Positions 56,470 through 64,000 of a stretch of 64,000 bases of DNA are shown piece after piece. Source of the DNA: Escherichia coli. GTDB taxonomy: Bacteria; Pseudomonadota; Gammaproteobacteria; Enterobacterales; Enterobacteriaceae. The stretch's first letter is position 1, and every line of letters starts with the position of its first letter. The translations under genes were made by a program, and so were the position numbers. The stretch is from the NCBI RefSeq assembly GCF_024700885.2, contig NZ_CP117016.1. One strand, 5' to 3'. The notes below the pieces were generated by a model. It made no database searches. It had not been told where the DNA came from and worked only from the letters and a program-made list of their open reading frames with translations.

Positions 56470-57723
56470 ATGCTGGAACAAATGGGCATTGCCGCGAAGC
56501 AAGCCTCGTATAAATTAGCGCAACTCTCCAGCCGCGAAAAAAATCGCGTGCTGGAAAAAATCGCCGATGAACTGGAAGCACAGAGCGAAATCATCCTCAA
56601 CGCTAACGCCCAGGATGTTGCTGACGCGCGTGCCAATGGCCTTAGCGAAGCGATGATTGACCGTCTGGCACTGACGCCCGCACGGCTGAAAGGCATTGCC
56701 GATGATGTGCGCCAGGTGTGCAACCTCGCCGATCCGGTGGGGCAGGTAATCGATGGTGGCGTGCTGGACAGTGGCCTGCGTCTGGAGCGCCGTCGCGTGC
56801 CGCTGGGTGTGATTGGCGTGATTTATGAAGCGCGGCCGAACGTGACGGTTGATGTCGCTTCGCTGTGCCTGAAAACCGGTAACGCAGTGATCCTGCGTGG
56901 TGGCAAAGAAACCTGTCGCACTAACGCTGCAACGGTGGCGGTGATTCAGGACGCCCTGAAATCCTGCGATTTACCGGCAGGCGCAGTACAAGCGATTGAT
57001 AATCCTGACCGCGCGCTGGTCAGTGAAATGCTGCGTATGGATAAATACATCGACATGCTGATCCCGCGTGGTGGCGCTGGCCTGCATAAACTGTGCCGCG
57101 AACAGTCGACGATCCCGGTGATCACAGGTGGTATAGGCGTATGCCATATTTATGTTGATGAAAGTGCAGAGATCGCTGAAGCCCTGAAAGTAATCGTCAA
57201 CGCGAAAACCCAGCGTCCGAGCACATGTAATACGGTTGAAACGTTGCTGGTGAATAAAAACATCGCCGATAGCTTCCTGCCTGTGTTAAGCAAACAGATG
57301 GCTGAAAGCGGTGTGACGTTACACGCCGATGCTACCGCACTGACGCAATTGCAGGCAGGTCCCGCGAAGGTGGTTGCTGTTAAAGCTGAAGAGTATGACG
57401 ATGAGTTTCTGTCATTAGATTTGAACGTCAAAATCGTCAGCGATCTTGACGATGCCATCGCCCATATTCGTGAACACGGCACACAACACTCCGATGCGAT
57501 CCTGACCCGCGATATGCGCAACGCCCAGCGTTTTGTTAATGAAGTAGATTCATCCGCTGTTTACGTTAACGCCTCTACGCGTTTTACCGACGGCGGCCAG
57601 TTTGGACTGGGCGCGGAAGTGGCGGTAAGCACACAAAAACTCCACGCGCGTGGCCCAATGGGGCTGGAAGCGCTGACCACTTACAAGTGGATCGGCATTG
57701 GTGATTACACCATTCGTGCGTAA
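56470..57723 (+). CDS. proA: Gamma-glutamyl phosphate reductase
   Basis: 417 aa; follows proB by 11 nt. Confidence 0.95.
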
Positions 57724-57837
57724 ATAAAACCGGGTGATGCAAAAGTAGCCATTTGATTCACAAGGCCATTGACGCATCGCCCGGTTAGTTTTAACCTTGT
57801 CCACCGTGATTCACGTTCGTGAACATGTCCTTTCAGG

Positions 57838-57913
57838 GCCGATATAGCTCAGTTGGTAGAGCAGCGCATTCGTAATGCGAAGGTCGTAGGTTCGACTCCT
57901 ATTATCGGCACCA
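57838..57913 (+). tRNA. thrW: tRNA-Thr (anticodon CGU)
   Basis: 76-nt sequence gccgatatagctcagttggtagagcagcgcattcgtaatgcg...ggttcgactcctattatcggcacca with cloverleaf features and CGT in the anticodon loop. Confidence 0.9.
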
Positions 57914-58008
57914 TCACCTAGTTTTCCCAAGTCAACCCACATCAACAAAATCATTTAAAAACATATATATTACGTTGTTTTCATACGTTTGAGGTCAACC
58001 CTTGTCTC

Positions 58009-59268
58009 TTGAAATCAACACGCGGTTGGGGGCACAATCAGGGGCATGTTCTGTTCGGTCTAGGAAATGTGCCCCCAATGATGCTGAATGCCCGCAAGGT
58101 TGAAGCTGCGAAAGGAAAAGAGAAGAGCTACAAGCTGTTTGATGGAGGTGGCCTATATCTTCAGGTCGAACCTAATGGCTCGCGTTACTGGCGTATGAAA
58201 TACCGTTTTGCTGGTAAAGAGAAACGATTGTCCTTTGGTGTTTATCCAACAGTCACACTTGCTGATGCCAGACAAAAACGAGAAGACGCGAAGAAACTAC
58301 TCGCAGCAGGTGAAGATCCCGGCGAAGTCAAAAAAGCCAAAAAGCAGGCTTTAAATGCAGCGATTGAGACACTTAACCCATTCAGAGAAGTGGCGTTAGA
58401 GTGGCACAAAATGAAATCACCCAAATGGTCTGAGGGCTATGCTTCCGACATCATTGAGGCATTCGAGAAAGACATTTTCCCGCATATTGGGCACAGACCT
58501 ATAGCTGATATTCAGCCCCTTGAACTGCTTGAAGTTCTGAGATTGATAGAAGCTCGAGGCGCTATGGAGAAAGCGAAGAAAGTCCGTCAGCGATGCGGTG
58601 AAGTTTTTCGCTATGCCATCGTAACGGGTAGGGCAATCTACAATCCGGCACCGGATCTTGCCAGTGCGATGCAAGGACATGAAGCAGTCCACTATCCATT
58701 CCTCAAAGCCAACGAACTACCGGAGTTCTTTAATGCCCTTAATTCTTATTCAGGAAGTCCAATTGTATTGTTGGGGGCGCATTTACTTATCCTGACAGGT
58801 CTACGAACTGGAGAACTACGAGCAGGTGAGTGGCGAGAGGTGGATTTTGATAATGCGGTGTGGGAGATCCCAAAAGAACGTATGAAAATGCGTAGGAGCC
58901 ATATTGTCCCGTTGTCAAAACAAGCATTATCCCATCTCAAAAGTTTGAAAGAACTAACTGGGAACTACCCGCTGATGTTCCCTGGACGCAACGATCCTAG
59001 CAAATTTATGAGTGAAGCAAGCATTAATCAGGTGTTTAAACGTATTGGATATGCAGGGCGTGTTACGGGGCATGGTTTCAGGCATACGATGAGTACAATC
59101 CTACATGAGAAAGGATTTAACAGCGCTTGGATTGAAACCCAGCTTGCTCATTCGGACAAAAACTCTATTCGTGGAATTTATAACCATGCCCAATATCTCG
59201 AAGGGAGAAGAGAAATGATGCAATGGTATGCTAATTATTTATCTGAGCTAATTGGTACTCATAAATGA
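58009..59268 (+). CDS. int: P4-type tyrosine integrase
   Basis: 419 aa; N-terminal arm-binding region (LFDGGGLYLQVEPNGSRYWRMKYRFAGKEKRLSFGVYP), C-terminal catalytic region (HGFRHT...YNHAQY); starts 95 nt after the tRNA. Confidence 0.9.
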   Translation: MKSTRGWGHNQGHVLFGLGNVPPMMLNARKVEAAKGKEKSYKLFDGGGLYLQVEPNGSRYWRMKYRFAGKEKRLSFGVYPTVTLADARQKREDAKKLLAAGEDPGEVKKAKKQALNAAIETLNPFREVALEWHKMKSPKWSEGYASDIIEAFEKDIFPHIGHRPIADIQPLELLEVLRLIEARGAMEKAKKVRQRCGEVFRYAIVTGRAIYNPAPDLASAMQGHEAVHYPFLKANELPEFFNALNSYSGSPIVLLGAHLLILTGLRTGELRAGEWREVDFDNAVWEIPKERMKMRRSHIVPLSKQALSHLKSLKELTGNYPLMFPGRNDPSKFMSEASINQVFKRIGYAGRVTGHGFRHTMSTILHEKGFNSAWIETQLAHSDKNSIRGIYNHAQYLEGRREMMQWYANYLSELIGTHK

Positions 59269-60089
59269 ATATTTTAAAAATTAATAATACTGATTCTCTG
59301 CTCAGAGATTACTACCAGTTGGATGAAGCTTCAGAAAAAATTGGTTGTAGTGAAAAGGATATACTCTGGTTTGCCAGAGAACGAGATGTAGAGCTATGCA
59401 TGGAATTCCATGATGATGAGTATGATGTTTCATGTGGTTTGAAGATTGATGGTCAAATGGATGAGTTCTTATCTAATCTGAAATATTTACCACGAGATAG
59501 AAATGGCAATATTATGTTGTCAGACTTAAGTTCTATAAGAATCCCTGATGAAGATAATTTAATTGATAAAAATGGTTTTATTCGATGTTTCATATCCGGT
59601 TTATGGGCTGTTGATTATGAATATAAAGATCTGTTAGTTAAGCATGAGGGGCAACCGGATTCCTGGCCTATTCATTTTCTACTGGCGGGTACGCCTAATA
59701 TAAATTGTAAGGTAATTCTTTATGTAAATTATGATGAAAAAGAAAATTATTATCTTTTTGAGGTTTTGTGGATTACAAAGGTACAGATTCAAAAATTCAT
59801 TGATATAGTCTTATGCGAACAAAAGCGGATAAAAAACGCCAATAAATATAAATCACAATCTGAGGCGCAAAAACAAAAACATGCTGTTCCTCGAGCTGAA
59901 ATACTCATGGCTATTATTTCGCTCTATCATCGTGATATGAGGCTAAGAAGAGAGAGTCCAGCAGCGATAGCTGATTATCTTTTTCAACATGCCAGTGAGT
60001 TCTGGCCTAAGACCGGAGAACCGCCTTTGAGCTATGATACTGTTGTTAGTTTGCTACGTAGTTGCATGAAAAACACTAAGTTTAACTAA
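59265..60089 (+). CDS. Hypothetical island cargo protein, AT-rich
   Basis: 274-aa ORF whose ATG overlaps the integrase stop (ATGA); N-terminal segment DYYQLDEASEKIGCSEKDILWFARE may be an excisionase-like HTH; the rest shows no motif I recognise. Confidence 0.55.
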   Translation: MNILKINNTDSLLRDYYQLDEASEKIGCSEKDILWFARERDVELCMEFHDDEYDVSCGLKIDGQMDEFLSNLKYLPRDRNGNIMLSDLSSIRIPDEDNLIDKNGFIRCFISGLWAVDYEYKDLLVKHEGQPDSWPIHFLLAGTPNINCKVILYVNYDEKENYYLFEVLWITKVQIQKFIDIVLCEQKRIKNANKYKSQSEAQKQKHAVPRAEILMAIISLYHRDMRLRRESPAAIADYLFQHASEFWPKTGEPPLSYDTVVSLLRSCMKNTKFN

Positions 60090-60214
60090 ATATTAACAAT
60101 TATTGTGGCTAATGATTTTGGATTTTTTTCATTAGTCACATTTTTCTCATTTATAACCTATGTTTTAATTTTCCGTGTTGAAGCCAATAGACTTAGATAA
60201 ACGGAGAATGATGA

Positions 60215-60421
60215 ATGTTATCTAAACATGATAATACTACTTTGCAACGACCTTCAATGGATTCTCTGATCGATATGAAGTTTATTACTTCCGATTGTTT
60301 ATTAAGTGATAAATGGATTTATCGATTGATTTCTCTGAATCGCTTTCCAAAACCTATAAAAATAGGTCGGATGTCACGATGGCGCGCTGCTGATTATTAT
60401 AAGTGGCGAGATGGGTTTTAA
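60215..60421 (+). CDS. alpA: AlpA-family phage transcriptional regulator
   Basis: 68 aa; HTH pattern (YRLISLNRFPKPIKIGRMSRWRAADYYKW). Confidence 0.6.
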   Translation: MLSKHDNTTLQRPSMDSLIDMKFITSDCLLSDKWIYRLISLNRFPKPIKIGRMSRWRAADYYKWRDGF

Positions 60422-60537
60422 GAAAACTCAGGTCAACATTTTGAGGGAATGAGAAATAAGGCAAGAGCAATTAATAAAGGGAATAGATTATCACCTACTC
60501 CCTAAGCCTTAATTGATAGTTAGTAATATTTAACTGA

Positions 60538-60711
60538 TTAGCCTTTAGGGTCAATCCCGCGTGATTGGAGTTCTTTGCGTAAAATTCTTTTAATCCAAGT
60601 TGCCAACGCGCTATCTCCATCTTTGCGCATTTCGTTTTCGAGTTGCAACCTAAAATCGTCGGTAAGACGCATTTGGAATGGTGGAGAACGTTTCTCTTGT
60701 GGTGTTGACAT
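60538..60711 (-). CDS. Small basic protein, possible ribbon-helix-helix regulator
   Basis: 57-aa minus-strand ORF (MSTPQEKRSPPFQMRLTDDFRLQLENEMRKDGDSALATWIKRILRKELQSRGIDPKG); below the track's length cutoff. Confidence 0.3.
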   Translation of the reverse strand: MSTPQEKRSPPFQMRLTDDFRLQLENEMRKDGDSALATWIKRILRKELQSRGIDPKG

Positions 60712-61011
60712 GGTAATTACCCTAGAATATGATGACTACATGGTAATTACCATTGTAAGTATAGTTCGCTTGTAAAAGCAATGCCCGATTGTGCGGGAAC
60801 ACAAATCGGGCATTTAACCAACCGTTATAAGAGGTAACGAAGATGGCTAAACAGAAGTGTACTTGGTTATTTGCGGCGATCAACCGCAGTCAACGCAATG
60901 CCCGTCCTGTGATGTTAAGGATCACCGCAGATAACGAGCGGTCAGCGCGGCGCAGACTTGCCCCGGACTATGTACTGAGCTTTGCCGGGCGCATTCCCTG
61001 CGGAGGTGAAC

Positions 61012-61371
61012 ATGCGTAATTATCCGCACCCCGGCGAACGCTGGCAGCATGAACGTGGCTGGACGGTCACGATTATCCGATTAATAGAAGCATCGCCCTC
61101 TGTGGCACTGGTTAATCCTGAATTCAGCTGTGAAGTGCTGATACGTCATGACAGCGACAACCAGCTTTCTTCCTGCCCTCTGGCATGGTTTGAACAGCGG
61201 TATACGCGCCTGTTTGATGTACCGCTCTTTAAGCCTGCACCAGCTCCTGCAGGCGGTAGTGGTTCCGGCCCGCTGACACTGCATCCGTCTGTGCTATTTA
61301 TCCGCTGGCGGGAGCGTAGCATATGGCGTTCTGCTGAGCCTGACGACGGTCACTATTCAAAGTTTCTCTGA
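61012..61371 (+). CDS. Hypothetical protein, island
   Basis: Track ORF 60982..61371; likely start MRNYPHPGERWQ preceded by RBS ggaggtg. Confidence 0.4.
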   Translation: MRNYPHPGERWQHERGWTVTIIRLIEASPSVALVNPEFSCEVLIRHDSDNQLSSCPLAWFEQRYTRLFDVPLFKPAPAPAGGSGSGPLTLHPSVLFIRWRERSIWRSAEPDDGHYSKFL

Positions 61372-61402
61372 CAAAATACCGCTGAAAACGGAGTAATCCA
61401 CG

Positions 61403-61687
61403 ATGAATATTTCAAACGGGCACAACGGTGCTCAGGGCCACACTTTGCCTGAAAAACACAATACCGGTGCTTTTGCCTATGGGTTGTCAGAGGACAGTTT
61501 CGGAAAGCTGACCCGCGCAAGAAATGCCTGCGACATGCTCCAGCTTCTCTTTTCTGAATACCCGTCTCAGGCCGGAGCACTGGACGCTGGCTGTGCGCAT
61601 GGTGTCGCCGCGCTGATGGAGTACCTGCTGGCAGATTTGACGGATATTGCACACAGCTGCGCACTGATTGAAGGAGGTGCCAGATGA
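61403..61687 (+). CDS. Hypothetical protein, island
   Basis: 94-aa ORF; its stop overlaps the next ORF's start. Confidence 0.4.
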   Translation: MNISNGHNGAQGHTLPEKHNTGAFAYGLSEDSFGKLTRARNACDMLQLLFSEYPSQAGALDAGCAHGVAALMEYLLADLTDIAHSCALIEGGAR

Positions 61688-62067
61688 ACCAGCCGCAGGT
61701 TTCCATTTTCCCGGCAGAAATGACCACCGCGCTTTACCGGCGGGCTATTGCTTCAGCATGGCGGCAGAAAATGCTGAACGAAACTGGCAGTGATCAGTAT
61801 GGTCCGCACAGCCTGACGGTGGAGCGTATTGAAATGGCCATTGCGCTGCATATCGAGTGCGTACTGATTAACGAGTACGGCGAAGTGCAGGGCGCCGCTG
61901 CCGCGCTGGCACTGCTGACTGACATGCTGGAGCCGTCACTGCTGACCGCGCCGCCGGTACTGACCGCGCGCGGCTGTGAAGTGATGGCGGAGATGTACCG
62001 CACGCTTCCGGCGGCCTTTGATGACTTCTGCAGTACCGGTGTGACGTTGTATGAGGGGGAAGTATGA
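61684..62067 (+). CDS. Hypothetical protein, island
   Basis: 127-aa ORF; its stop overlaps the primase start (ATGA). Confidence 0.4.
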   Translation: MNQPQVSIFPAEMTTALYRRAIASAWRQKMLNETGSDQYGPHSLTVERIEMAIALHIECVLINEYGEVQGAAAALALLTDMLEPSLLTAPPVLTARGCEVMAEMYRTLPAAFDDFCSTGVTLYEGEV

Positions 62068-64000
62068 CAATACAGACGGTTACGCAGATTTCAGCCGCCG
62101 CACGGGGGAAATGGCCCGTTATTCTGCAGATGCTGCGTATTGATGTACCTGAAAACGGCAGGCACGGTCCCTGCCCGAAATGTGGGGGCAAGGATCGTTT
62201 TCGCCTTGATGACCTTGACGGGCGCGGGACGTGGATCTGCAGCCAGTGTGGCAATGGTGACGGTCTGGATCTGGTTAAGCTCGTAACCGGTTACAGCGTC
62301 AGAAAGGCTGCGCAGGAGGTGGCGCAGGTGCTTAATGTGCCGAATATGCAGGAACTGCCTGTTAAGCCTGCCAGACAAAAAGCCCCTAAACGCGACATGG
62401 GTCTTACCGTGGCGGCGCTGATGAAAGAGAGCCACACGGGAGAAAGCGCCTATCTGACAGGAAAAGGGTTCGCCGGATACCCGGCCTCTCTGACCGGAAG
62501 CGTGCAGCATATCAGCGGTAAGGATTTCCCTGCCGGTTCCCTGCTGTTACCACTCACGACCAACACCGGAGCCGTGACCGGTGCACAGCTTATCGCCCCG
62601 ACGGGTGAAAAAAGCATACTGCCCGGCAGCACGATGAAAGGCGCGTTTGTGTCGCTCAGCCCGTTACCGTCTGAACCACCGGTACAGGTGGTGATTACCG
62701 AAGGTTACGCTACGGCGCTGACGGTAAGTCAGCTCACTGCCGGATGCGTAGTGGCTGCCATATCTGCGGGCAACCTGCCCAATGTGGCGCAGTCGCTGCG
62801 GGCACGCTGGCCTGAGGTAAAAATTATCATCGCCGGTGATAACGATTTTCAGGACGGAGATGAGAATCCCGGCAGAGCCTTTGCTGAACGGGCGGCAAAA
62901 GCTGTTGGCGGCTGGATGACGCTGCCACCAGGAGAGATTAAGGCTGACTGGAATGACTTTCATCGGGAGCACGGTATTACCCGTGCCCGTGAAGCCTTTC
63001 GCAACGGTCTGGTACTGTGCGGGGAAGGCCGCACGCAACTGCCGCACGGGTTCCGTCTTACCCAGGAATATCTCTGGTATGAAAAGCAGGTACAGCGCAA
63101 CGGTGAGACGGAGATCCAGAACGTCAAAATATGCAGCCCGCTGCGCGTGACGGCAATCACCTGCGATGCCGATGGCGGTAACTTCGGACGACTGCTGGAA
63201 TGGGAAGATACGTGGGGTGAGTGTCGCCGCTGGGCGATGCCGATGGAAATGCTGAGCGGCAGTGGTGAGGAACTGCGCCGGGTACTGCTGGTTAACGGGC
63301 TGTCTTATATCAGCACCACCGGTGAGGCACGCGCACGCCTGATGGAATATATCTCACTGTGTAAACCGGAACGCCGCGTGACCTGCGTCAGTCGTACTGG
63401 CTGGCATGGTCAGGTTTACGTCCTGCAGGATGAGGTCAGCGGTGAAGGTGCAGAGGGTGTCATTCTCCAGACCACTTCCGTGCAGGGGCGTGATTTCCGC
63501 GTGTCGGGCACAACAGAGGAATGGCGGGAGCATGTATCCCGCTACTGTACCGGCAACTCCCGCGTGGCATTTGCTGTCAGCCTGGCCTTTGCTGCACCAC
63601 TGTTACGGCTGGTTGGTATGGACGGCGGCGGCTACCACCTCAAAGGGGAATCGACAGACGGTAAGACCACCACCATGAAAGCGGCAACCTCCGTCTGCGG
63701 CGGGCCTGACTACTGGCAGACATGGCGGGCCACCGGCAACGCGCTGGAGGGATGCGCCAGCCGCCGCAACGATGCCGCCATGATGCTTGATGAGATCCGG
63801 GAAGTTGACGGACGCGAGGCAGGCAATATCGCCTACATGCTGGCAAACGGTCAGGGCAAGGGCCGTGCCGGTACGGACGGTGAGCTGCGTACCCGTAAGC
63901 AGTGGCGCCTGTTGTTCTTTTCAACTGGCGAGTTGTCTCTGACCGAACATGCGGCAAAGGCCGGTGAGCGTACTTTTGCCGGGATGGAAGTCAGGATGAT
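62064..64000 (+). CDS. P4 alpha-like primase/helicase; 3' end beyond window
   Basis: Open frame from ATG 62064 to the window end (not in the ORF track): zinc-binding motif CPKCGGKDRF...CSQCG, TOPRIM-like VITEGYATA / IIAGDND, Walker A GESTDGKTT. Confidence 0.85.
   Translation, partial: MTIQTVTQISAAARGKWPVILQMLRIDVPENGRHGPCPKCGGKDRFRLDDLDGRGTWICSQCGNGDGLDLVKLVTGYSVRKAAQEVAQVLNVPNMQELPVKPARQKAPKRDMGLTVAALMKESHTGESAYLTGKGFAGYPASLTGSVQHISGKDFPAGSLLLPLTTNTGAVTGAQLIAPTGEKSILPGSTMKGAFVSLSPLPSEPPVQVVITEGYATALTVSQLTAGCVVAAISAGNLPNVAQSLRARWPEVKIIIAGDNDFQDGDENPGRAFAERAAKAVGGWMTLPPGEIKADWNDFHREHGITRAREAFRNGLVLCGEGRTQLPHGFRLTQEYLWYEKQVQRNGETEIQNVKICSPLRVTAITCDADGGNFGRLLEWEDTWGECRRWAMPMEMLSGSGEELRRVLLVNGLSYISTTGEARARLMEYISLCKPERRVTCVSRTGWHGQVYVLQDEVSGEGAEGVILQTTSVQGRDFRVSGTTEEWREHVSRYCTGNSRVAFAVSLAFAAPLLRLVGMDGGGYHLKGESTDGKTTTMKAATSVCGGPDYWQTWRATGNALEGCASRRNDAAMMLDEIREVDGREAGNIAYMLANGQGKGRAGTDGELRTRKQWRLLFFSTGELSLTEHAAKAGERTFAGMEVRM

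What the first reader, a model, noticed from the sequence alone, without database searches (positions are those of the whole stretch)
59265..60089. AT-rich 274-aa cargo gene fused to the integrase stop in a thrW-integrated island
The island at thrW has the order tRNA, integrase, 274-aa ORF, alpA, small ORFs, primase, resembling P4/CP4-type satellites. Such islands are known to carry anti-phage cargo. The 274-aa gene is visibly more AT-rich than its neighbours, overlaps the integrase stop (ATGA), and apart from a possible excisionase-like HTH (DYYQLDEASEKIGCSEKDILWFARE) has no motif I recognise. It may be a regulator, an excisionase-like factor, or an accessory defence or interference gene.
Basis: inference. 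Interest (0 to 1): 0.6.

Follow-up and report, generated by a model that had tools for sequence, protein, structure and literature searches.

The report
Integrase-coupled satellite gene, not defence cargo
The 274-aa gene is real, but it is a fixed, fast-evolving and uncharacterised part of the integrase–AlpA control module of phage satellites, most likely a DNA-binding helper of excision or induction, and not swappable anti-phage cargo.

Summary
A 274-aa ORF (59265-60089, +) overlaps the integrase stop by ATGA. It is 34.5% GC and lies in a 12.25-kb P4-like satellite at thrW.

The cargo/defence reading is not supported.
- The variable cargo is at the other end of the island, outside the window: a retron St85 system plus RipA.
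- Relatives of the gene (called X here) keep the order int→X→alpA in every complete locus examined. These loci are P4-like satellites, fis-integrated PICIs, and primase or DnaB islands from E. coli to Aeromonas and Rheinheimera.
- X is kept while the cargo after delta differs.

X has no Pfam, NCBIfam, PADLOC or PDB match. It is under purifying selection (dN/dS 0.11). It has lower GC than int in all 12 loci checked, and lower than alpA in 11, so AT-richness is a family trait.

The predicted structure has a conserved N-terminal winged-helix-like domain, a variable middle and a helical C-terminus. Dyad repeats follow the X stop codon, upstream of alpA, and change with X type rather than AlpA type.

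The closest precedent is the "integrase-overlapping gene" (iolg) of Vibrio PICMI satellites, reported as necessary for excision. Homology to it could not be tested.

Best reading: an accessory DNA-binding factor of the Int/AlpA switch.

The parts
57838..57913 (+). thrW, tRNA-Thr(CGT), the integration target
   Evidence: ARAGORN; Rfam tRNA, 71.8 bits
57897..57906 (+). attL core TCCTATTATC. The second copy (attR) lies 12.25 kb downstream, outside the window.
   Evidence: Exact 10-mer found twice in the identical island L001, at 14098 and 26339. It is the same core reported for the thrW satellite EcCIMP1 (PMC11773190).
58078..59268 (+). P4/CP4-57-type tyrosine integrase. RefSeq start is 58078; the longest ORF starts at 58009.
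   Evidence: phrog_1 1.9e-74, NF007246 1e-87; RefSeq annotation of the identical island
59265..60089 (+). X, the 274-aa integrase-overlapping gene (the finding)
   Evidence: ORF; ATGA overlap; dN/dS 0.11; no Pfam, PHROG, NCBIfam, PADLOC or PDB match; conserved int→X→alpA position
59310..59408 (+). Codons 16-48 of X: conserved N-terminal winged-helix-like unit.
59430..59780 (+). Codons about 56-172 of X: central alpha/beta domain, variable in sequence and length across the family
   Evidence: AF2 model. Family alignments put the large insertions and deletions here, with only the GxW and LWI motifs shared. 14 of the 20 differences from the L025 copy, and 10 of the 18 from the L018 copy, lie between residues 67 and 192.
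59847..60074 (+). Codons 195-270 of X: conserved helical C-terminal domain (QSEAQKQKHAVPRxEILMA...LRRESPAA...FWP..GEPPLSYDT)
   Evidence: Densest run of invariant columns in the close family. The ERHAxxRExVLxAAI...W...PPL motif is shared by many distant members. The fis-element subtypes have a different C-terminus.
60104..60140 (+). Inverted repeat TGTGGCTAATGA-N13-TCATTAGTCACA, 15 nt after the X stop. Candidate terminator of the int-X transcript, or operator in front of alpA.
   Evidence: Script. RNA fold -15 kcal/mol, z -4.3. Arms are conserved and the loop is not across E. coli, Citrobacter, Pantoea and Erwinia. Perfect copies of the half-site occur nowhere else in the island.
60161..60206 (+). 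Conserved non-coding block in front of alpA. It holds an extended -10-like TGnTTTAAT (60161-60169), TTTTCCGTGTTGAAGCCAATAGAC, and GGAG (60203-60206).
   Evidence: Read from the cross-genus DNA alignment. Its role as a promoter is my inference; the promoter scan did not call it.
60215..60421 (+). alpA/vis-like gene, cut to 68 aa by a TAA where 96-99-aa orthologues have GAA (codon 69)
   Evidence: phrog_66 1.3e-05; translations of the window and two orthologues
60538..60711 (-). 57-aa Arc-like small ORF, the only gene of the module on the opposite strand
   Evidence: phrog_228 Arc-like repressor, E 0.0037, weak. Conserved at 86-91% in Pantoea and Erwinia.
60705..60751 (+). Strong promoter-like site TTGACA-17-TATGAT with two copies of the palindrome ACATGGTAATTACC. 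It marks the start of the replication/early operon and lies inside the module breakpoint zone.
   Evidence: Promoter scan, 11 of 12; repeats D6 and I13. The replication module joins other int modules from window positions about 60569-60817 onward.

Best explanation
X is a core accessory protein of the satellite's integrase–AlpA switch. It is the enterobacterial counterpart, by position and organisation, of the 'integrase-overlapping gene' (iolg) of PICMI satellites. It is not cargo.

Proposed mechanism, with each step marked:
1. X is made together with the integrase from one transcript, by translational coupling through ATGA. The overlap is shown; co-expression is inferred.
2. The conserved N-terminal winged-helix-like domain binds DNA. 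The most likely target is the dyad or tandem palindromes that lie between the X stop codon and the alpA promoter in nearly every locus. This is inferred from position and from the way the repeats change with X type.
3. Through this binding, or through contacts of its C-terminal domain with Int or AlpA, X sets whether alpA is expressed and excision can occur when a helper phage arrives. This is inferred. The precedent is that deleting iolg abolishes helper-induced excision of PICMI115.
4. The fast-evolving central domain is the part free to adapt to a variable partner, either a helper protein or the cognate Int/AlpA. This is speculative.

I favour a positive role (cofactor or activator) over a repressor role.
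For: Position:
- int→X→alpA on one strand in every complete locus found with an X relative. These are four enterobacterial genera with P4-like satellites, other E. coli integration modules at argW, and DUF927-primase islands including Aeromonas at ssrA.
- The same order holds in DnaB/HTH_36 islands of Arsukibacterium and Rheinheimera and in fis-integrated PICIs. In the fis elements, 13 of 20 int-downstream genes are X family, and 18 of 20 overlap int by 4 or 1 nt.

Not cargo:
- The cargo after delta differs between satellites that keep X: a retron, an SMC/AAA protein, AAA_15/21 proteins, or a P4-cII-like gene.
- In E. coli, X occurs in 65 of 5426 genomes, once per genome. A feature annotated as integrase lies under the match in all 40 listed hits. 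About 69 genomes carry this integrase at 90% identity or more.
- The same replication module, at 98-99% identity, is joined to other int+X+alpA modules in most of about 334 genomes.

Real and constrained: dN/dS 0.11.

DNA-binding candidate: strand-helix-helix-strand N-terminus with pLDDT about 90, part of the family consensus.

Repeats:
- Dyads or tandem short palindromes start within about 0-20 nt of the X stop in most loci.
- Many have 4-5-bp arms with 1-2-nt spacers, such as GGAAATTCC or GTGATATCAC. By my reading these are too short to form RNA hairpins.
- In fis elements with nearly identical AlpA, the repeat type follows the X type: GGAAnTTCC with 'LPALEYC' X, TATCAC/GTGATA with 'LPERLYYP' X.

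Precedent: PICMI iolg overlaps int by ATGA, lies between int and alpA, and is reported as necessary for excision, packaging and transduction. The authors propose an Int–IOLG–AlpA excision complex (PMC10803314).

Against a repressor role: two independent IS1 insertions in X leave the island integrated with int and alpA intact.
Against: - No experiment exists on this family.
- Homology of X to the tested PICMI115 IOLG was not established, because no Vibrio sequence could be retrieved. iolg is a positional class of 13 sequence families.
- In PICMI, the iolg deletion was complemented only with int plus iolg together, so polar effects are not excluded.
- The repeats sit next to the 3' end of X, so their variation with X type may be plain linkage.
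- A crude 6-mer test showed the repeats do not follow AlpA, but it did not show that they follow the X N-terminus at 55-60% identity.
- The window's own repeat has long arms and a T-rich tail, and could simply be a terminator.
- The slot after int can hold unrelated proteins: phrog_30524, a phrog_23422-like family, and P4 cII. This leaves room for a variable accessory slot.
Confidence: 0.5

Rival explanations
1. Stl-like master repressor. X is made constitutively with int, binds the dyads in front of alpA and keeps the satellite silent. A helper-phage protein binds the variable middle domain and releases X, which switches on alpA, excision and replication.
For: - N-terminal helix-turn-helix-like domain with a hypervariable remainder, next to int, fast-evolving. 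From my own knowledge, SaPI Stl repressors share these traits.
- In fis elements the repeats lie close upstream of alpA. That they overlap the likely -35 region is my reading.
- How helper phages induce alpA is stated as an open question (PMC10803314).
Against: - X is co-directional with alpA, not divergent from it. Divergent transcription of stl and its target operon is from my own knowledge.
- The iolg deletion in PICMI abolishes excision and does not make it constitutive, although homology is untested.
- Two E. coli islands with IS1-disrupted X and intact int and alpA remain integrated.
- No similarity to known repressor HTH families.
Confidence: 0.17
2. Pure recombination cofactor. X joins Int and AlpA on att DNA as an architectural or directionality factor and has no role in transcription.
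For: - Translational coupling to int in most loci.
- int, X and alpA are exchanged together as one module.
- The PICMI authors propose a three-protein excision complex.
Against: - The only perfect copies of the window's repeat half-site are the two arms in front of alpA. There are none near attL or attR.
- X stays directly upstream of alpA even where two small ORFs separate it from int.
- int and X do not diverge in step. int is 83% identical but X only 58% in Pantoea agglomerans. int dS is about 1.0 against 0.27 for X in close E. coli and Citrobacter copies.
Confidence: 0.13
3. Anti-phage or interference cargo. The slot after int is a small variable accessory position, and X is one of several unrelated defence or interference genes that can fill it.
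For: - The slot holds at least four or five sequence-unrelated families of 210-330 aa: X, phrog_30524, a phrog_23422-like family, the L079 type and P4 cII.
- In canonical P4 the gene after int, cII, is counted within the gop-beta-cII anti-phage locus (PMC9122126).
- X has GC as low as the retron cargo.
- X evolves faster than its neighbours.
Against: - No PADLOC hit.
- Retained across genera while the true hotspot cargo changes.
- Same position in satellites with different helpers and different replication modules.
- Low GC is a constant of the family in hosts from 43 to 64% GC.
- No predicted enzymatic or membrane domain.
Confidence: 0.1

Closest known systems
iolg (integrase-overlapping gene) of PICMI satellites of Vibrionaceae (Nat Commun 2024, PMC10803314)
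   Same: - A gene of unknown function, co-oriented with int, overlapping its stop (ATGA is the commonest overlap), between int and alpA in a phage satellite.
- Sequence is very diverse between elements.
- Reported as expressed with int while alpA is helper-induced.
   Different: - The host element here is a 12-kb P4-like satellite at thrW in E. coli, not a roughly 6-kb fis-integrated Vibrio PICMI.
- Sequence or fold homology to PICMI115 IOLG was not tested.
- iolg is a positional class of 13 families, not a protein family.
- The requirement for excision has not been shown for X.
AlpA / Vis / Xis excisionase-regulators (Pfam Phage_AlpA, HTH_17)
   Same: - Possible small winged-helix DNA-binding unit at the N-terminus.
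- Belongs to the integration module.
- The module's own alpA lies right next to it.
   Different: - X is 274 aa with two further domains.
- No Pfam match and no profile similarity to AlpA.
- A separate alpA is always present as well.
SaPI Stl master repressors
   Same: HTH-like N-terminus plus a divergent remainder, encoded beside int, a candidate for sensing helper proteins. The description of Stl is from my own knowledge, not tested here.
   Different: - Co-directional with the genes it would control.
- No sequence similarity.
- The PICMI deletion phenotype is opposite to that expected of a repressor.
P4 cII (264 aa; Pfam PF26915, 'sce7726 family'), the gene immediately after int in P4 itself
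   Same: Same slot, same orientation and similar size, directly downstream of int.
   Different: - No detectable homology (hhalign probability 0.1%).
- A PF26915 gene and an X homologue occur together in one Pantoea satellite.
- P4 has a different gene order, with the late genes between cII and vis.

Membership tests
Integrase-overlapping gene (iolg) class of AlpA-type satellites | ORF co-oriented with int and overlapping its 3' end by 1, 4 or 13 nt | tested here: met
   4-nt ATGA overlap at 59265-59268
Integrase-overlapping gene (iolg) class of AlpA-type satellites | Located between int and alpA in a phage satellite | tested here: met
   alpA-like gene at 60215 (phrog_66). The satellite has a primase, sid-like gene, psu and delta.
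Integrase-overlapping gene (iolg) class of AlpA-type satellites | Required for helper-induced excision | not testable with these tools
   Needs genetics. It is known only for PICMI115.
Integrase-overlapping gene (iolg) class of AlpA-type satellites | Sequence or fold relationship to PICMI115 IOLG | not tested
   No PICMI sequence could be obtained. The fis-att scan returned only elements with the E. coli-type (enterobacterial) Fis sequence. Protein searches gave no Vibrio member. One AFDB hit is from Vibrio diazotrophicus (E 9.6e-8), but its genomic context is unknown.
PICMI satellite | Small element integrated at fis in Vibrionaceae | tested here: not met
   12.25-kb element at thrW in E. coli, with psu and delta
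P4-like satellite hotspot cargo / anti-phage system | Content of the position varies between otherwise closely related satellites | tested here: not met
   X is kept in E. coli, Citrobacter, Pantoea and Erwinia satellites whose cargo after delta differs. X changes only when the whole int+X+alpA module is exchanged.
P4-like satellite hotspot cargo / anti-phage system | Match to a known defence protein model | tested here: not met
   PADLOC: 0 families at E up to 1
P4-like satellite hotspot cargo / anti-phage system | Confers phage resistance | not testable with these tools
   Needs plaque assays
Excisionase / AlpA (HTH_17, Phage_AlpA) | Profile match to the family | tested here: not met
   No Pfam hit for X or for any of 30 relatives. 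hhalign against 13 AlpA/Vis sequences gave probability 0.1%.
Excisionase / AlpA (HTH_17, Phage_AlpA) | Winged-helix fold, strand-helix-helix-strand(s) | tested here: inconclusive
P4 cII (PF26915) | Sequence homology | tested here: not met
   No Pfam hit; hhalign probability 0.1%
CP4-57 YfjH (gene between intA and alpA in K-12) | Sequence homology and same strand as int | tested here: not met
   yfjH is on the opposite strand; hhalign probability 0.1%

The most novel reading that the evidence does not exclude
X is the missing helper-phage sensor of AlpA-type satellites (P4-like, Gram-negative PICIs and perhaps PICMIs). It would be made constitutively with the integrase and sit on the dyad operators in front of alpA. 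Its hypervariable middle domain would bind a helper-phage protein, and that event would switch alpA on, and with it excision and replication. The rapid divergence of X and the exchange of int+X+alpA modules would then set which helpers can induce which satellite.
Probability: 0.15. Interest if true: 0.8.

Novelty: new member of a known kind. Interest (0 to 1): 0.42.

Why it matters
Satellites of the AlpA type are found in a large share of Enterobacterales genomes and carry much of their anti-phage arsenal. How a helper phage turns on alpA, the master switch, is stated as unknown in the papers read here.

This work shows that a single unannotated protein superfamily sits between int and alpA in very different satellites. 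It has a conserved DNA-binding-like head, a variable body and its own set of nearby repeats.

This generalises the 'iolg' observation, so far made only in small Vibrio satellites, to P4-like elements and fis PICIs. It also gives a concrete candidate to test for the excision/induction step.

For annotation, it warns against reading every AT-rich unknown gene next to an integrase as defence cargo.

Tried and rejected
Led nowhere:
- PADLOC, PHROGs, NCBIfam and Pfam on X. Pfam was also run on 30 relatives. Only weak phrog_7144 (unknown function) hits appeared for three distant members.
- PDB sequence searches with two profiles gave only chance hits: Fab heavy chains and one tRNA transglycosylase.
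- Rfam on 57700-64000 found only the tRNA and two sub-threshold hits.

Considered and rejected:
- Homology to K-12 YfjH, to P4 cII, to AlpA/Vis, and to the other int-overlapping families.
- EcCIMP1_002, the gene between int and alpA of another thrW satellite. It is described as only about 10% of the size of UvrB, so I judge it a different protein.

Technical failures:
With the close family it found one locus among the species-representative genomes.
- Attempts to obtain a Vibrio PICMI failed. The fis-att scan gave only elements with the E. coli-type (enterobacterial) Fis sequence. Cluster look-ups and the last protein search gave no Vibrio member.

Inconclusive:
- A pairwise 6-mer test showed that the repeats do not follow AlpA. 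It could not show that they follow the X N-terminus at intermediate identity.
Full report
**What is there**

The window end carries phoE, proB, proA and thrW (tRNA-Thr CGT, 57838-57913). These are followed on the + strand by:
- a P4/CP4-57-type tyrosine integrase (58078-59268; phrog_1 1.9e-74, NF007246 1e-87);
- the 274-aa ORF at 59265-60089, called X here;
- an alpA/vis-like gene (60215-60421; phrog_66 1.3e-05);
- a 57-aa Arc-like ORF on the minus strand (60538-60711);
- an icd-like gene, two small ORFs, a DUF5375 gene and a TOPRIM/DUF927 primase that runs off the window.

The integrase ends ...CAT AAA TGA and X starts at the ATG inside AAATGA. The 4-nt overlap is real.

The same 6.2 kb occurs at 99.5-100% identity in the 20 best-matching complete E. 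coli genomes listed. In one of them the island continues with a sid-like gene, psu, delta, a retron St85 effector and reverse transcriptase, and RipA. It ends at a second copy of the core TCCTATTATC, 12.25 kb from the copy inside thrW. This is a P4-sized, P4-like satellite. Its variable defence cargo, the retron, lies at the far end after delta.

**Is X a gene?**

- With the local base composition, 274 open codons have a chance probability of about 1e-10. All other frames are full of stops.
- Against two copies at 93% nucleotide identity (one E. coli, one Citrobacter), dN/dS is 0.11. The integrase gives 0.04-0.05 and the primase 0.04.
- X is therefore a constrained protein-coding gene that evolves two to three times faster than its neighbours.

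**Composition**

X is 34.5% GC (GC3 28%). The integrase is 45%, alpA 34.8%, the replication genes 54-59% and the retron cargo 30-31%.

X has lower GC than int in all 12 loci measured, by 8 to 18 points. It is lower than alpA in 11 of them (alpA was measured in those 11), by 3 to 15 points. The hosts' flanks range from 43 to 64% GC. The unrelated 212-aa protein that fills the slot in a twelfth locus shows the same dip.

AT-richness is thus a standing trait of this position. It is not a sign that this copy arrived recently.

**What X resembles**

- No hit came from PADLOC, PHROGs, NCBIfam or Pfam, nor from Pfam on 30 relatives.
- PDB sequence searches gave nothing.
- A word-indexed search of 5.8 billion proteins gave 18 clusters, all hypothetical. 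They are 55-61% identical apart from the close cluster, which has 1562 member sequences.
- An exhaustive profile search of 1.84 billion cluster representatives gave only 43 hits, mostly 230-330 aa.
- An AlphaFold model (mean pLDDT 79) shows a strand-helix-helix-strand unit at residues 16-48, an alpha/beta domain at about 56-171, a long helix, a disordered linker at 191-206 and a helical bundle at 200-269.
- AFDB50 gives 188 matches at E up to 0.001. The 50 listed come mainly from Enterobacterales, Aeromonas and Vibrio, and 48 of them are unnamed.

Across the family the shared features are:
- the N-terminal motif YYxLxxAAxLLGCxxxDL;
- a GxW motif and an LWI motif;
- in many members, a C-terminal ERHAxxRExVLxAAI...W...PPL motif.

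The middle is variable in sequence and length.

**Genomic context, the decisive evidence**

*Close family.* In Pantoea cypripedii, P. agglomerans, Erwinia and Citrobacter the homologue abuts the integrase stop in a syntenic satellite: int, X, alpA, reverse small ORF, icd-like and so on (one P. agglomerans copy lacks the DUF5375-primase segment). The genes after delta differ: an SMC_N/AAA protein, an AAA_15/21 pair, or a P4-cII-like gene with others.

| Gene | Identity to the window, Pantoea cypripedii / Erwinia |
|---|---|
| int | 64% |
| X | 56-59% |
| alpA | 82-93% |
| Arc-like | 88-91% |
| primase | 85-91% |

*E. coli.* X occurs in 65 of 5426 complete genomes, once each. A feature annotated as integrase lies under the match in all 40 listed hits. 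About 69 genomes have this integrase at 90% identity or more.

The replication module from about 60570-60817 onward is found in 334 genomes at 90% identity or more. Most of these are joined to other integration modules at leuX or argW. In those modules int is only 39-41% identical and alpA is different.

| Module | Gene after int | Relation to X |
|---|---|---|
| argW (L011) | 293 aa | Distant X relative; aligns with the family motifs |
| argW (L012) | 324 aa | Distant X relative; aligns with the family motifs |
| leuX (L010) | 212 aa | Unrelated, phrog_30524 |

*Distant family.* A 22%-identical relative lies int→X→AlpA→...DUF5375→DUF927 in a metagenome contig. Others lie in:
- a DUF927 island with AntA and SSB;
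- an Aeromonas schubertii island at ssrA;
- DnaB/HTH_36 islands of Arsukibacterium and Rheinheimera at ssrA. There two small ORFs separate int from X, but X still directly precedes alpA.

*fis elements.* Scanning IMG/VR for the fis-end att core brought 89 stretches. Every Fis that could be read has the E. coli-type (enterobacterial) sequence. Among 20 integrases with a downstream same-strand ORF:
- 18 overlap it by 4 or 1 nt;
- 13 of those ORFs are X family (E 1e-11 to 1e-55), each followed by alpA where the sequence continues;
- the other seven are unrelated types: a phrog_23422-like family of 284-290 aa (five or six of them, one a partial ORF) and a 242-aa type.

X is therefore a regular component of the int–alpA module of several satellite classes. 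It is not cargo of this island.

**Literature**

- No paper mentions the protein accession.
- Surveys of P4-like satellites place the defence hotspot between int and psu-delta-sid. In the passages retrieved they do not describe a conserved gene after int.
- The PICMI paper is the close precedent. [quoted passage not shown] It was named iolg, and its deletion abolishes helper-induced excision, packaging and transduction.
- 21 of 35 PICMI subfamilies have an overlapping gene and 4 have a contiguous one. These fall into 13 sequence families.
- The authors propose that Int, IOLG and phage-induced AlpA form the excision complex. They leave open how the helper turns on alpA.
- The complementation used int plus iolg together, so the requirement for iolg itself is not fully isolated.
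- I could not obtain a PICMI sequence to test homology with X.

**DNA signals around X**

Fifteen bases after the X stop lies TGTGGCTAATGA-N13-TCATTAGTCACA (60104-60140).
- As RNA it folds at -15 kcal/mol (z -4.3) and is followed by a T-rich stretch.
- Its arms are conserved in sequence from E. coli to Erwinia, while the loop is not.
- Perfect copies of the half-site occur nowhere else in the island.
- Downstream is a block conserved better than the X coding sequence. It holds an extended -10-like TGnTTTAAT and the alpA ribosome-binding site (the promoter reading is mine).

Other loci show dyads or two tandem short palindromes in the same place:

| Loci | Repeat after the X stop |
|---|---|
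| 'LPALEYC' X in fis elements | CGGAAATTCCG and CTGGAnnnTTCCAG |
| 'LPERLYYP' X in fis elements | TATCAC...GTGATATCAC |
| Two 'LPLEYC' loci | Two copies of CCGGTAA...TACCGG |

Many of these have arms too short, and spacers too small, to be RNA hairpins. That points to protein binding.

In the fis elements AlpA is 90-97% identical across the two X types, yet the repeats differ completely and follow the X type. In 9 discordant pairs, 0-2 shared 6-mers were found, except in one pair where both X are of the same type. The repeats are physically linked to X. A crude 6-mer test at intermediate identity was uninformative. This is suggestive only.

**Other relevant facts**

- int and X do not diverge in step. 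int is 83% identical and X 58% in P. agglomerans. int dS is about 1.0 against 0.27 for X in close copies. A recombination joint therefore lies near their junction.
- Two independent IS1 insertions interrupt X in E. coli 50EVAW and NCTC9966. In both, int and alpA are intact and the island is still in place. This is mild evidence against X being the repressor that keeps the element silent.
- In the window itself alpA carries a TAA where orthologues have GAA, which cuts 96-99 aa to 68 aa. This copy of the switch may be impaired. Frequent alpA decay in P4-like elements is reported.

**Interpretation**

The evidence best fits an accessory DNA-binding factor of the Int/AlpA switch. X would be made with the integrase and act at the repeats in front of alpA, or in the excision complex. 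It would be needed for, or would gate, helper-induced excision. I put this at about 0.5, with a positive role preferred.

| Rival reading | Confidence |
|---|---|
| Stl-like repressor that senses the helper | 0.17 |
| Pure att-level recombination cofactor | 0.13 |

The cargo reading keeps some weight. The slot can hold unrelated proteins, and P4's own gene in this slot, cII, is counted within an anti-phage locus.

**Verdict**

- The cargo/defence interpretation is not supported. The regulator or excision-factor alternative is favoured.
- The gene is a new member of the positional class 'integrase-overlapping gene'. It belongs to a widespread protein superfamily that Pfam, NCBIfam and PADLOC do not cover.
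- Interest is moderate. It offers a concrete, testable candidate for an open step in satellite induction, but nothing here is shown experimentally.

Noticed in passing
window 60419-60421 (alpA codon 69): The alpA-like gene has an in-frame TAA where orthologues in other E. coli and Citrobacter copies have GAA. This cuts a 96-99-aa protein to 68 aa, and the downstream reading frame is still recognisable. The satellite's master regulator may be impaired in this strain.
   Followed up: yes
window 60705-60751: Near-consensus promoter TTGACA-17-TATGAT overlapped by two copies, 30 bp apart, of the palindrome ACATGGTAATTACC. It lies between the start of the reverse Arc-like ORF and the icd-like gene. 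It looks like the operator and promoter of the early/replication operon, possibly bound by the Arc-like protein.
   Followed up: partly
window about 60569-60817: Mosaic joint. The replication module downstream is 98-99% identical in about 260 E. coli genomes that carry different int+X+alpA modules at leuX or argW. The GC content jumps from about 36% to about 53% at the same place.
   Followed up: partly
window 60777-60848 (-): Sub-threshold Rfam match to SymR antitoxin RNA (31.6 bits against a gathering score of 61; E 0.005), just upstream of the icd-like gene. This is where P4-type elements would encode an immunity RNA. It may be chance.
   Followed up: no
L001 23731-26095 (outside the window; same island in E. 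coli S1-SRL-01-C): The island's true variable cargo is a retron St85-family effector plus reverse transcriptase and a convergent RipA-family membrane protein (30-31% GC). It lies between delta and attR.
   Followed up: partly
window 58078-59268 against 59265-60089: Synonymous divergence from two related copies is about 1.0 for int but only 0.27 for X and 0.25-0.26 for the primase. The integrase therefore has a separate history, and a recombination joint lies near the int/X overlap.
   Followed up: partly
L115 3090-3787 and L116 3619-4316 (E. coli 50EVAW and NCTC9966): Two independent IS1 insertions interrupt X at different places, near the 5' end and near codon 195. int and alpA are intact and the island is still integrated.
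   Followed up: yes
L028 8966-9820, L064 2395-3267, L096 1537-2382, L079 2227-2955 (fis-integrated elements in IMG/VR): Other genes overlap the integrase stop by 4 or 1 nt but show no detectable relation to X. One is a 284-290-aa family with weak phrog_23422 matches; the other is a 242-aa type. Together with phrog_30524 (L010) and P4 cII, the slot after int holds several unrelated proteins of similar size.
   Followed up: partly
L008 10517-14472 (another thrW island, E. coli WP7-S17-ESBL-04): A different thrW island has a 69%-identical integrase gene followed by an HsdM-family methyltransferase, an ORC/CDC6-family AAA ATPase and a hypothetical protein. It looks like a defence-type island that uses the same tRNA site.
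   Followed up: no
Island gene order, window 57897-64000 plus L001: The gene order is int, X, alpA, ..., primase, sid-like, psu, delta, cargo. The canonical P4 order is int, cargo, psu-delta-sid, alpA, ..., primase. Here the late genes and the cargo lie after the primase, in the same orientation.
   Followed up: partly
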